Below, one piece after another: positions 48,501 to 51,500 of a stretch of 64,000 nucleotides of DNA (position 1 is the first letter of the stretch; each line of letters opens with the position of its first letter). The position numbers are program-made. Source of the DNA: Dendrobates tinctorius (lineage: Eukaryota); NCBI RefSeq assembly GCF_039654945.1, contig NW_027361758.1, forward strand, positions 1,116,001 through 1,180,000, given 5' to 3'.

Positions 48501-51500
48501 TATTTTCCCAAGGGTAAAAGGGTGGGGGGGGAACCACTGTTTGGGCGCACGGCAAGACTCGGAAGGGAAGGAGCGCCATTTGACTTTTTGAAAGGAAAAT
48601 TAGCTCCAATCGTTAGCGGACACCATGTCGTGTTTGGAGAGCCCCTGTGTGCCTAAACGTTGGAGCTCCCCCACAAACTACTCCATTTTGGAAACTAGAC
48701 CCCCTAAGGAACTTATCTAGATGCATAGTGAGCACTTGGAACGCCCAGGTGCTTTACAAATTGATCTGTAAAAATGAAAAAGTACCTTTTTTTTTTTTGT
48801 TTCACAAAAATTTTCTTTTAGCCTCAATTTTTTCATTTTCACATGGGCAACAGGATAAAATGGATCCTAACATTTGTTGGGCAATTTCTCCTGAGTACAC
48901 CGATACCTCATATGTGGTCCTAAACTACTGTTTGGGCGCATGGTAGGGCTCAGAAGGGAAGGAGCGCCATTTGACTTTTAGGCTATGTGCACACGCTGCG
49001 GTTTTTGCTGCGGATCCACTGCAGAACTGCAGCAGTTCTGCAGACAGTGTACAGTACAATGTAAGTCTATGTGATTTACATTCTGCTGTGCACATGCTGT
49101 GGATTTTCAACTGCGGAAAAGCTGCGGTTTTGAATCCGCAGAAAGAATTGACTTGTCAATTCTTTCTGCGGATTCTGCTGCGGTTTACCACCTATTCCAT
49201 TGTCCAGGTGTCAAACCACAGGGGAAAACCGCTGGCCAATCCACAGGTCATTTTACCTGCAGTTTTACCTGCGGATCCGCAGATACAAATCCGCGGGCGA
49301 ATTCGCAGAGTGTGCACATAGCCTTAGAATGGAAAATTAGCTCCAATCGTTAGCTGACACCATGTCTCGTATGGAGAGCCCCTGTGTGCCTAAACATTGG
49401 AGCTCCCCTACAAGTGACCTCATTTTGGAAACTAGACCCCCCCAAGGAACTTGAGAAAACAAAAAGCAAAAAACACAAATATCCTAAAATGAAAAAGTAA
49501 ATTGCAAATAATGAATAAAGGTAATAGTATTTAGTAAACATAATTTTGATCAAAATAATGTACAAGCTATCCCGCCACATCAAGGCAACCCTTGTGGGAC
49601 AGTCCTAACTCTACCATTTAAAACCTTTTCACTTGACAAGTGACGTGAATGTGAACAAGGATCGAGGGACTGAACCACTAGTAAAAGCATAGTCCAGACA
49701 GGATGGATTTCCCAGATCAGAAAGAGGGCAGTCACACCCATACATGCACAGAATGCACAATGAAATTAAATGAAATTAAATGAATAAAAAAAACAGGAGT
49801 CTGAACTGAGAAAGTAAGTTAATGTGTATGCACAATGTAAGTGCATATTAACACATGACCATTAACCAGAGAAAACAAAAAATCCTAAAATAAAAAAGTA
49901 AACTGCAAGTAATGCATAAAGGTAATATTATTATTATTATTAATAATAATAGTAGTATTTAGTAAACATAGCTTTCTCTGGTTAATGGTCATGTGTTAAT
50001 ATGCACTTACATAGTGCATACGCATTAACTTACTTTCTCAGTTCAGACTCCAGTTTTTTATTCCCCCCCAAGGAACTTATCTAGATGTGTGGTGAGCACT
50101 CTGAACCCGCAAGTGCTTCACAGAAGTTTATAACGCAGAGCCGTGAAAATAAAAAATCATTTTTTCCCCCCTCAAAAAATTATTTTTTTAGCCCACACTT
50201 TTTATTTTCACAAGGGTAAAAAATAGAAAAAAAAATAAAGCCCCCGTTTATCACCCCCCATAGGTAGGAAAAAATAATAAAATAAAGATTTATTTTTCGG
50301 TTTGGGTTAGGATTAGGGTTGAGTTAGAATTGAGGGGTTTCCAAACACATTAGGGGGTCTCCAAACGCGACATGGCGCCACCATTGATTCCATCCAATTT
50401 TGCGTTCAAAAAGTCAAACAGTGCTCCCTCCATTCCGAGCCCCAACATGTGCCCAAAACAGTGGTTTACCCCAACATATGGGGTATTAGCGTACTCAGGA
50501 AAAATTGCACAACAACTTTGGGGGTCTAATTTTTCCTGTTATCCTTGGGAAAATACAAAATTGGGGGTTAAAAAAAAAAAGAAAAAAAAAATTGTGTGGA
50601 AATTTTTTATTTTTTTATTTTCACAGCTCTGCGTTATAAACTTCTGTGAAGCACTTGGGGATTCAAAATGCTCACCACACATCTAGATGAGTTCCTTGGG
50701 GGGGGGGGGGGTCTAGTTTCCAAAATGGGGTCACTTGTGGGGGGGTTTCTACTGTTTAGGCACATCAGGGGACAAACTATCACACTGATAGGATTAAACA
50801 AAGTGATCAAAATGTACCTGAAATGAATGAATGAATGAATGAATGAATGAATGAATCTGCGACCGGTAGAGTCGGCATGCGCCCGCCATTTTGGAAGATA
50901 GCGGCGCCCATAAAAGGATTCGGGAGGGACACAGGGGGTACCGGGCTGGGGGAAATCGGAAGGCGGGGGAGCGGAGGGCAGGGGAGGGGGAGCAAATACT
51001 GACGGTGGCGGCAGGTCGCTGCCGTCAGTCATGAGGGGGGTTCAGATCGAGGTCTCCAGCCATGGCCGATGATATTGCAGCATCGGCCAGGGCTGTATAG
51101 TAATATTTCACCAAATTTCATTAGTGAAATATTACAATCGCTCTAATTTGGCCGTTTCACTTTTAATAGCCAATCAGAGCGATCGTAGCCATGGAAGGGC
51201 TAAGCCACCTCCCCCGGAGTGAAGGACAAAGGGTCCTGTACCTGTGGGTCGAGTGACCTTTCAGTGACCCCAGTCACCTGACCCGCAGAAGGGCGATTAA
51301 GTCATGATGCCACATAGGCGTCATAGGTCGGATTGGCATGACTTTTCATGAGCCTACATGGCATCAGAGGTCGGGAAGTGGTTAAAAAGAGCTAAAAAAC
51401 AAAACAAAACCCTAACGTGTGAATGAGGTTTATCACTAGTGATTTACATAGCAATTGTAAGCCATGCCCTGGAGAGGGTCAAACACAGCTTATTCTAACA

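What the first reader, a model, noticed from the sequence alone, without database searches (positions are those of the whole stretch)
49437..50078. Independent second case of the 'long TSD + terminal fold-back' signature, with a partial tandem repeat
Seen: 16-bp TSD; the start of the insert (49453-49541) recurs directly at 49869-49970, giving a ~415-bp unit plus a partial second unit, followed by a ~90-bp inverted copy of 49783-49874. The sequence differs from the 2-kb case but the geometry is the same. Inference: reverse transcription of a tandem or circular ~415-nt RNA (roll-around), then fold-back, as expected for Penelope pseudo-LTR or retrozyme-type templates.
Basis: partly seen in the sequence, partly recalled or inferred. 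Interest (0 to 1): 0.68.

Follow-up and report, generated by a model that had tools for sequence, protein, structure and literature searches.

The report
Retro-insertion with snap-back hairpin end
A 610-base piece of foreign sequence was pasted into an older repeat, duplicating 16 bases of target; it carries one and a quarter copies of a 416-base unit plus a folded-back copy of its own end, which looks like a reverse-transcription accident and not like a ribozyme-bearing element.

Summary
A perfect 16-base duplication (49437-49452 and 50063-50078) flanks a 610-bp insert. All 6 other copies of the host repeat in the window carry that 16-mer once, with contiguous flanks, so this is a true insertion with a target-site duplication (TSD).

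The insert holds a 416-nt unit (49453-49868), a second start of that unit (49869-49970), and a 92-nt inverted copy of 49783-49876 that ends exactly at the right TSD. The direct and the inverted duplicates are about equally diverged (about 94% and 96% identity), so both probably arose in one event.

A second, unrelated insert at 1963-2332 has the same geometry: 15-bp TSD and 86-nt arms.

My best reading is target-primed reverse transcription of a U-rich RNA without a poly(A) tail. The enzyme ran past the template's 5' end (template jump, tandem or circular template), and the cDNA end then snapped back on itself. Snap-back junctions are described for R2 and L1 insertions.

The Penelope/retrozyme reading is not supported: no hammerhead, and the inverted piece is not placed as in Penelope-like elements. 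A circular template cannot be tested here.

Unexplained: no A-tail, arms of similar length, and a 5-bp inverted repeat bracketing both targets.

The parts
49324..49436 (+). Left flank: host repeat unit, upstream part
   Evidence: Matches six other copies in the window, e.g. 7595-7471(-) and 48587-48714(+).
49437..49452 (.). Left copy of the 16-bp target-site duplication
   Evidence: 16 of 16 identical to 50063-50078. Present once in 6 of 6 paralogous empty sites.
49453..49541 (+). Segment A: the first 89 nt of the insert, A-rich; start of the 416-nt unit
   Evidence: Recurs at 49869-49970.
49542..49782 (+). Segment B: single-copy middle of the unit
   Evidence: No other match in the window. 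No Pfam or Rfam match of note.
49783..49876 (+). Left arm of the fold-back: end of the unit (49783-49868) plus the first 8 nt of the second round
   Evidence: 88 of 92 aligned bases identical to the reverse complement of 49971-50062.
49869..49970 (+). Segment A': second, partial round of the unit; it forms most of the hairpin loop
   Evidence: 73 of 78 aligned bases identical to A; a 15-nt gap and a 27-nt microsatellite gain.
49971..50062 (+). Right arm: inverted copy of 49783-49876, ending at the last base before the right TSD
50063..50078 (.). Right copy of the 16-bp target-site duplication
50079..50219 (+). Right flank: host repeat unit, downstream part
   Evidence: Continues the same paralogous copies without a gap.
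1963..1977 (.). Second case: left copy of a 15-bp TSD
   Evidence: 15 of 15 identical to 2318-2332.
1978..2138 (+). Second case: 161-nt single-copy part of the insert
   Evidence: No other copy in the window. Unrelated in sequence to the first insert.
2139..2317 (+). Second case: terminal fold-back with 86-nt arms (2139-2224 and 2232-2317) and a 7-nt loop, ending at the right TSD
   Evidence: 85 of 86 complementary. Folds at -105 kcal/mol against -16.8 +/- 3.1 for shuffles.
2318..2332 (.). Second case: right copy of the 15-bp TSD

Best explanation
A single target-primed reverse-transcription (TPRT) event. An endonuclease/reverse-transcriptase of the LINE type, acting in trans, pasted a cDNA of an unrelated, U-rich RNA without a poly(A) tail into an older repeat.

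Inferred steps:
1. The two target strands were nicked 16 bp apart.
2. The + strand 3' end (..AACTT) primed cDNA synthesis, so the + strand of the insert is the first cDNA and the template was its complement.
3. The enzyme copied the whole 416-nt template (49453-49868). At the template's 5' end it carried on at the same starting point for another ~100 nt (49869-49970). This happened either by an end-to-end template jump or because the template was tandem or circular.
4. The free cDNA 3' end snapped back on itself, possibly through a TTTT/AAAA microhomology at 49872-49875, and copied 92 nt of its own strand (49971-50062).
5. That end was joined to the other target end without useful microhomology, and gap filling produced the 16-bp TSD.

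Shown: the insertion, the TSD, the anatomy, and the equal age of the two internal duplications. Inferred: the RNA intermediate, the polarity, and the order of steps.

The insert at 1963-2332 is a simpler product of the same process, with no second round and a 7-nt loop.
For: - Empty sites: 6 of 6 paralogous host copies have one 16-mer and contiguous flanks.
- TSD lengths of 15 and 16 bp exceed what any DNA-transposon or LTR-element class gives and fit LINE-type staggered nicks (established knowledge, recalled).
- The only non-LTR reverse transcriptase found in the window is an L1-clade LINE at about 21.9-27.6 kb. Its ORF2 matches human L1 ORF2p at E about 1e-84, against 1e-19 for R2. It has an A-rich tail and a TSD of at least 8 bp (read).
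- The direct duplicate A/A' (73 of 78) and the inverted duplicate (88 of 92) are equally diverged, as expected if both formed at insertion. An intact 16-mer TSD is expected about half the time at that divergence.
- In both cases the inverted arm ends exactly at the TSD, which ties hairpin formation to integration.
- The two inserts are unrelated in sequence and neither has another copy in the window. This fits trans-mobilised templates better than one element family.
[quoted passage not shown] Self-annealing with 2-bp homology that gives inverted duplications at L1 insertion sites is described in passages of bioRxiv 10.1101/2024.12.14.628481.
- On the + strand both nicks are T/A (CTT/AT and TGT/AG), weakly like the L1 endonuclease preference.
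Against: - There is no poly(A) or A-rich tail where the model puts the template's 3' end. The inferred template ends ..GUUUUCUC (case 2..GUUUUCAUC) and has no AAUAAA nearby (read). L1-type mobilisation normally needs an A-tail.
- The nick sites are only loosely L1-like.
- Nothing shows an RNA intermediate directly: no spliced-out intron and no parent locus.
- Two of two events with snap-back arms of similar length (86 and 92 nt) is more regular than an occasional accident would suggest.
- Both targets carry a 5-bp inverted repeat bracketing the TSD in the same register. Background is 1.45% per site for any of nine registers and 0.23% for that exact register (a post hoc test). This hints at an enzyme that cuts both strands symmetrically, which is not the textbook L1 picture.
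- The 15-nt and 27-nt indels between A and A' must be later slippage or slippage during synthesis.
Confidence: 0.5

Rival explanations
1. Twin priming instead of snap-back. Both nicked target strands primed reverse transcription on the same kind of U-rich RNA, one at its 3' end and one about 330 nt (case 2: 161 nt) upstream. The two cDNAs met near the template's 5' end and were joined.
For: - All four junctions read from the TSD into purine/A-rich sequence, so all four would be starts on pyrimidine-rich RNA stretches (read).
- A Penelope-like enzyme cleaves and extends both strands in vitro (main text of PMC11167929).
- A twin-priming intermediate was seen for L1 (passages).
- The symmetric 5-bp repeats around both TSDs fit symmetric action on the two strands.
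Against: - The two cDNAs would have copied the same 86-92 nt of template. Classical twin priming gives adjacent, not duplicated, segments, so this needs two RNA molecules or strand displacement.
- In case 1 both cDNAs would have had to make the same passage from the template's 5' end back to its start.
- The 7-nt loop of case 2 is what simple self-priming gives.
Confidence: 0.15
2. One reading: a non-autonomous Penelope-like element or retrozyme. A circular or multimeric ~415-nt RNA is copied by a Penelope reverse transcriptase with roll-around and then an inverted partial copy.
For: - Partial tandems (pseudo-LTRs), adjacent inverted copies, palindromes at inverted junctions attributed to self-priming, use of antisense templates, intron retention and trans-mobilisation of unrelated sequence are all described for Penelope-like elements (passages of PMC8557442 and PMC3846280).
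- Read on the - strand, the insert has the form short 3'-end copy, then body, then 3' end, which is formally a pseudo-LTR arrangement.
- Retrozymes and Penelope-like elements are reported in Xenopus frogs (passages of bioRxiv 10.64898/2026.07.22.740005).
- The enzyme initiates without homology to the target and cuts both strands.
Against: - No hammerhead in either insert or anywhere in the window. Active non-LTR retrozymes are defined there by a type I hammerhead in every repeat.
- The inverted piece copies an internal segment, not the unit's 3' end facing outward.
- The two inserts share no terminal sequence, whereas trans-mobilised cargo in Adineta vaga was framed by pseudo-LTRs.
- No GIY-YIG domain or Penelope-type reverse transcriptase in the 131 ORFs scanned.
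- TSDs quoted for A. vaga Penelope are 8-10 bp.
Confidence: 0.12
3. DNA-level templated repair. A staggered break was filled by repair synthesis (polymerase-theta or break-induced type) that copied a distant DNA locus with template switches: forward, back to the start, then snap-back.
For: - Fold-back templated insertions at breaks are known (abstract listing of PMC11724301; polymerase theta is cited for snap-back).
- There is no poly(A) and no sign of RNA processing.
- Insert 2 read on the - strand contains a GTGAGT...polypyrimidine-CAG stretch that looks like an unspliced intron (read).
Against: - The templated insertions in that listing are about 5-34 bp, not 340-610 bp.
- Such repair usually deletes target bases and does not duplicate exactly 15-16 bp twice.
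- No donor lies within the 64-kb window.
Confidence: 0.1
4. A mobile element family whose consensus already contains a terminal hairpin, so the fold-back is a built-in signal and not an insertion accident.
For: Two inserts share the geometry, arm length (86 and 92 nt), TSD length and a similar first 8-9 bases, GA(T)GAAAAC.
Against: - No sequence similarity between the two beyond chance: the start similarity is reached by 241 of 2000 shuffles.
- Arm divergence tracks the divergence of the direct duplicate.
- In case 1 the loop is a copy of the insert's own start, which a fixed signal would not explain.
- No other copies in the window.
Confidence: 0.08

Closest known systems
Snap-back 5' junctions and template jumping in non-LTR TPRT (R2-protein 'PRINT' insertions, PMC11371274; L1-associated inverted duplications, bioRxiv 10.1101/2024.12.14.628481)
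   Same: An inverted copy of the cDNA's own end lies between the insert and the upstream target. It can follow full-length cDNA synthesis. Extra template is added by jumping. Little or no homology is needed at the turn.
   Different: Those are experimental or tumour events with defined, tailed templates. Here there are two germline-fixed inserts of unknown RNAs without an A-tail, one with a 1.25-unit direct repeat, and with arms of similar length.
L1 5' inversions by twin priming (Ostertag and Kazazian 2001; seen only as a reference, otherwise recalled)
   Same: Long TSD; an inverted segment at the end where cDNA synthesis finishes.
   Different: Twin priming inverts a neighbouring segment with at most a small overlap. 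Here 86-92 nt are present in both orientations, and there is no poly(A).
Penelope-like element insertions (pseudo-LTR partial tandem plus inverted 5'-truncated copy)
   Same: Partial tandem, an inverted piece at one end, palindromic junctions attributed to self-priming, and mobilisation of foreign sequence.
   Different: No hammerhead, no shared pseudo-LTR, the inverted piece is internal rather than the 3' end, and the TSD is longer than the 8-10 bp quoted for A. vaga.
Non-LTR retrozymes (tandem hammerhead-bearing units giving circular RNAs)
   Same: Unit size of a few hundred nt; more than one unit copied head to tail.
   Different: The defining type I hammerhead is absent; only 1.25 units; no family seen.

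Membership tests
Non-LTR retrozyme | Type I hammerhead ribozyme in each repeat unit | tested here: not met
   Rfam E<=10 scan of 48800-50800 gave 15 weak matches, none a ribozyme. The whole window gave 0 matches at gathering score. None of the 38 CTGANGA sites in the window lies in 49453-50062.
Non-LTR retrozyme | Tandem multimeric organisation and a family of copies related to Penelope pseudo-LTRs | not testable with these tools
   Only 1.25 units here and no other copy in the 64-kb window. No eukaryotic genome collection was on hand.
Penelope-like element insertion | Reverse transcriptase plus GIY-YIG endonuclease ORF, or framing by that element's pseudo-LTRs | tested here: not met
   No ORF with a family match inside the insert. 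No GIY-YIG among the 19 + 112 window ORFs scanned. The two inserts share no termini. Presence elsewhere in the genome was not testable.
Penelope-like element insertion | Inverted 5'-truncated copy whose 3' end faces outward, giving terminal inverted repeats around the unit | tested here: not met
   The inverted arm copies 49783-49876, an internal segment. The insert's two ends are not inverted copies of each other.
Penelope-like element insertion | Partial tandem (upstream copy of the 3' end, i.e. a pseudo-LTR) | tested here: inconclusive
   A and A' fit this formally when read on the - strand. A template jump or a tandem template gives the same picture.
L1-type (APE endonuclease) retrocopy | TSD of about 7-20 bp with a verified empty site | tested here: met
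   16-bp TSD; 6 of 6 paralogous empty sites. Case 2 has a 15-bp TSD, but no empty site is available for it.
L1-type (APE endonuclease) retrocopy | Poly(A) or A-rich tail at the end where first-strand synthesis starts | tested here: not met
   Neither end of either insert carries a tail in the required orientation.
L1-type (APE endonuclease) retrocopy | First nick at a TTTT/AA-like site | tested here: inconclusive
   CTT/AT and TGT/AG on the + strand: T/A at the cut, but no T-run.
TPRT product with cDNA snap-back | Inverted copy of the insert's own terminal segment abutting the target at one end only | tested here: met
   The arms end at the last base before the TSD in both cases.
Fold-back MITE or other DNA transposon | Terminal inverted repeats at both ends and a TSD of 2-11 bp | tested here: not met
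   The fold-back is at one end only, and the TSD is 15-16 bp. True MITEs and Tc1 elements in the window look different.

The most novel reading that the evidence does not exclude
This genome has a distinct, recurrent retro-insertion pathway. An enzyme nicks both strands symmetrically about 15-16 bp apart next to a short inverted repeat. It starts reverse transcription on U-rich RNA ends without a poly(A) tail, possibly circular or multimeric RNAs without ribozymes. It regularly finishes with a snap-back of about 90 nt, so each event creates a ready-made long hairpin. The enzyme could be a Penelope-type or an undescribed one acting in trans.
Probability: 0.15. Interest if true: 0.7.

Novelty: new variant of a known kind. 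Interest (0 to 1): 0.4.

Why it matters
If the best reading holds, these are natural, germline-fixed examples of two side reactions of target-primed reverse transcription: running past the template's 5' end, and cDNA snap-back. In the papers I read, these were described in engineered systems and tumours.

Each such event creates a perfect 86-92-bp hairpin in one step. That is raw material for hairpin-RNA or microRNA-like genes; generic microRNA precursor models already score on it below threshold. It is also a potentially fragile palindrome.

Two events in 64 kb, both without an A-tail and both at targets with a symmetric short repeat, suggest the process may be common in this genome. It may reflect an enzyme whose rules differ from human L1. 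A genome-wide census could test that directly.

Tried and rejected
- Ribozymes and known RNAs. Rfam at E<=10 around both inserts, and at gathering score over the whole window, gave nothing but sub-threshold hairpin (microRNA-model) hits. ARAGORN found no tRNA in the window. One CTGATGA lies at 2134-2140(-) in insert 2, but no GAAA follows the adjacent stem by eye and Rfam gives no hammerhead.
- Coding content. 16 ORFs of 30-84 aa from both inserts gave no Pfam hit above cut-off.
- Ankyrin lead. A 48-aa frame (49632-49775, - strand) gave weak AKAP_110 and Ank_5 hits. The word-based search of longer proteins found none. The exhaustive search gave 6 hits; the three I read (P0001, P0002, P0004) are ankyrin-repeat proteins. 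Each repeat scores only about 9 bits and the total is inflated by 4-8 repeats per protein. My shuffle control is biased because the targets were picked with the real peptide. I treat this as not significant.
- Other copies. Neither insert has another copy in the window, and the two inserts are unrelated.
- More cases. Of 26 hairpins tested for abutting repeats, 51 inverted pairs, 308 short direct repeats, and a 2-mismatch TSD scan, only the two cases passed. The other hits were Tc1 ends, a MITE at 40958-41520 and low-complexity runs.
- Assembly artefact. Rejected because the arms differ (4 of 92 and 1 of 86 bases) and the insertion has a TSD.
- Helitron, MITE or LTR origin. Rejected on TSD length and one-sided geometry.
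- Organism. The protein-atlas look-up of the L1 ORF2 gave no useful taxon.
- Not used: structure prediction, complex prediction, and the collection scans. The one open collection is prokaryotic only, so it was not used.
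Full report
**What is there**

The window is eukaryotic and rich in transposons. It holds:
- Tc1/Sleeping-Beauty-like elements with TA|CAGTGGGG ends.
- Fold-back MITEs.
- A Ty3/gypsy element.
- An L1-clade LINE at about 21.9-27.6 kb. Its ORF2 matches human L1 ORF2p at E about 1e-84, against 1e-19 for R2. It ends in an A-rich tail with a TSD of at least 8 bp.

I do not take the window for human. From memory the MITE termini look amphibian, but I did not test that. Five masked N runs (796 bases) were left alone.

**Checking the observation**

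The 16-mer CCCCCCCAAGGAACTT lies at 49437-49452 and again at 50063-50078, 16 of 16 identical. The 610 bp between them have no other copy in the window.

The flanks belong to a repeat with six other copies: four in a ~385-bp tandem at 6.2-7.6 kb, one at 48.6-48.85 kb and an inverted one at 50.6-50.77 kb. In all 6 of 6 the sequence left of the insert runs straight into the sequence right of it, through a single copy of the 16-mer. A chaining scan of 244 self-matches found this as the only interruption of a repeat with a 16-base overlap.

**Anatomy of the insert (+ strand)**

- A: 49453-49541.
- B: 49542-49782.
- C: 49783-49868.
- A': 49869-49970.
- C': 49971-50062.

A' repeats A from the insert's very first base. 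In the alignment, 73 of 78 bases are identical; a 15-nt stretch is missing from A' and a 27-nt (ATT/AAT)n run is gained in it.

C' is the reverse complement of 49783-49876, that is C plus the first 8 nt of A'. Here 88 of 92 aligned bases are identical, with a 2-nt indel in an A-run, and C' ends at the last base before the right TSD. As single-stranded DNA the region folds at -99.7 kcal/mol, against -21.1 +/- 3.3 for 200 shuffles.

The direct and the inverted duplicates are about equally diverged (about 94% and 96% identity). This is what one expects if both arose in the insertion event and have decayed since. At that divergence an intact 16-mer pair is expected about half the time.

**A second case**

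My scans of the window used 26 hairpin-like pairs, 51 inverted pairs within 5 kb, 308 short direct repeats, and a TSD scan allowing two mismatches.
- A 15-bp TSD (CAGTCTGCTGGATGT) at 1963-1977 and 2318-2332.
- A 340-bp insert made of 161 nt of unique sequence plus a fold-back.
- 86-nt arms (85 of 86 complementary) and a 7-nt loop, again ending exactly at the right TSD.

Its flanks are unique in the window, so no empty site is available. The two inserts share no sequence beyond chance. Both begin GA(T)GAAAAC, but 241 of 2000 shuffles of the first 30 nt score as well.

**What it is not**

- No hammerhead or other ribozyme, and no tRNA-like or other Rfam family. The defining feature of retrozymes and of most Penelope pseudo-LTRs is therefore absent.
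- The inverted piece copies an internal segment of the unit. In Penelope-like elements the inverted copy keeps the 3' end facing outward (passages read).
- None of the 131 window ORFs scanned carries a GIY-YIG domain or a non-LTR reverse transcriptase other than the L1.
- TSDs of 15-16 bp and a one-sided fold-back rule out MITEs, Helitrons and LTR elements.
- Differences between the arms, together with the TSD, rule out an assembly artefact.

**How it most likely arose**

The strand that continues from a TSD-bearing 3' end is the newly made one. The fold-back must sit where synthesis finished, because a snapped-back end can only copy what was already made. That makes the + strand the first cDNA, primed at the left TSD, and its complement the template.

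That template is 43% U. It ends ..GUUUUCUC and has no A-tail or AAUAAA. The proposed steps are:
1. The enzyme copied the 416-nt template.
2. It then continued from the template's starting point for about 100 nt. This could be an end-to-end jump, or a tandem or circular template; the sequence cannot tell these apart.
3. The cDNA end snapped back and copied 92 nt of itself. The turn at 49970/49971 is compatible with a 4-nt TTTT/AAAA microhomology if two later transitions are allowed; this is my inference.
4. That end was joined to the other target end.

Snap-back 5' junctions of exactly this kind, including after full-length cDNA, and template jumping are described for R2-protein insertions in human cells (passages of PMC11371274). 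Self-annealing that gives inverted duplications at L1 insertion sites is described in a preprint (passages). So the geometry belongs to a known kind of TPRT side product.

Twin priming on two strands gives the same end product and cannot be excluded. A Penelope-like enzyme does cut and extend both strands in vitro (main text of PMC11167929).

**What does not fit neatly**

1. There is no A-tail, although TSD length, the T/A nicks on the + strand (CTT/AT and TGT/AG) and the resident LINE all point to L1-type machinery.
2. The arms are of similar length in the two events (86 and 92 nt).
3. Both targets show a 5-bp inverted repeat bracketing the TSD in the same register: CTAGA|16|A TCTAG and TCTGC|15|A GCAGA. 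Random window positions show such a repeat in 1.45% of cases for any of nine registers, and in 0.23% for that exact register. I found this after looking, so it is a lead and not a result. It hints at symmetric cutting of the two strands.
4. Read on the - strand, insert 2 contains GTGAGT...polypyrimidine-CAG, which looks like an unspliced intron (by eye). This would fit an unspliced or antisense template, or a DNA donor.

**Limits**

The decisive test is to collect other copies and look for permuted ends or a parent locus. It could not be run.

Four full-text searches turned up no report of germline inserts with this combination: long TSD, no A-tail, partial tandem, snap-back of about 90 nt. 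That is a statement about those searches only. Paper supplements were closed.

**Verdict**

The retrozyme/Penelope attribution is not supported. Interest is moderate: the mechanism class is known, but the recurrence and the odd details deserve a genome-wide census.

Noticed in passing
window 49432-49436 / 50080-50084 and 1958-1962 / 2334-2338: Both target sites have a 5-bp inverted repeat bracketing the duplicated segment in the same register (CTAGA..A TCTAG; TCTGC..A GCAGA). Background is 1.45% per site for any of nine registers and 0.23% for that exact register. Found post hoc.
   Followed up: partly
window 1978-2060, - strand: Insert 2 read on the - strand contains ..ACAGG|GTGAGT..(about 70 nt)..TTTCTTTCAG|, which looks like a short unspliced intron ending 8 nt before the insert's end. 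Seen by eye only.
   Followed up: no
window 49632-49775, - strand: A 48-aa open frame in the insert gives weak ankyrin-repeat-like matches (about 9 bits per repeat; totals inflated by 4-8 repeats per hit). Judged not significant.
   Followed up: yes
window 21937-27565, + strand: A nearly full-length L1-clade LINE with long open ORF2 segments (548 and 392 aa), an A-rich tail and a TSD of at least 8 bp (ACACTGAG, longer if the A-run is counted). It is the only non-LTR reverse transcriptase seen in the window.
   Followed up: partly
window 3700-5318 and 52356-53968: Two almost identical ~1.6-kb Tc1/Sleeping-Beauty-like elements with ~215-bp inverted ends (98-100% complementary), intact 366-aa transposase frames and TA flanks. 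They look young and possibly active.
   Followed up: partly
window 48980-49323: A 344-bp fold-back MITE (ends AGGCTATGTGCACAC../..GTGTGCACATAGCCT) sits in the same host repeat about 115 bp left of the insert. The host copy therefore took two independent insertions.
   Followed up: partly
window 5978-8358 and 47854-50771: The host repeat forms a ~385-bp tandem of four units at 6.2-7.6 kb inside a longer element that recurs at 47.9-50.8 kb, partly in inverted orientation. Its nature was not worked out.
   Followed up: no
window 57773-57873 and 63218-63300: Direct repeats about 5.4 kb apart flank Ty3/gypsy integrase, RNase H and reverse-transcriptase frames on the - strand. This is probably an LTR element whose LTR edges I did not define.
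   Followed up: no
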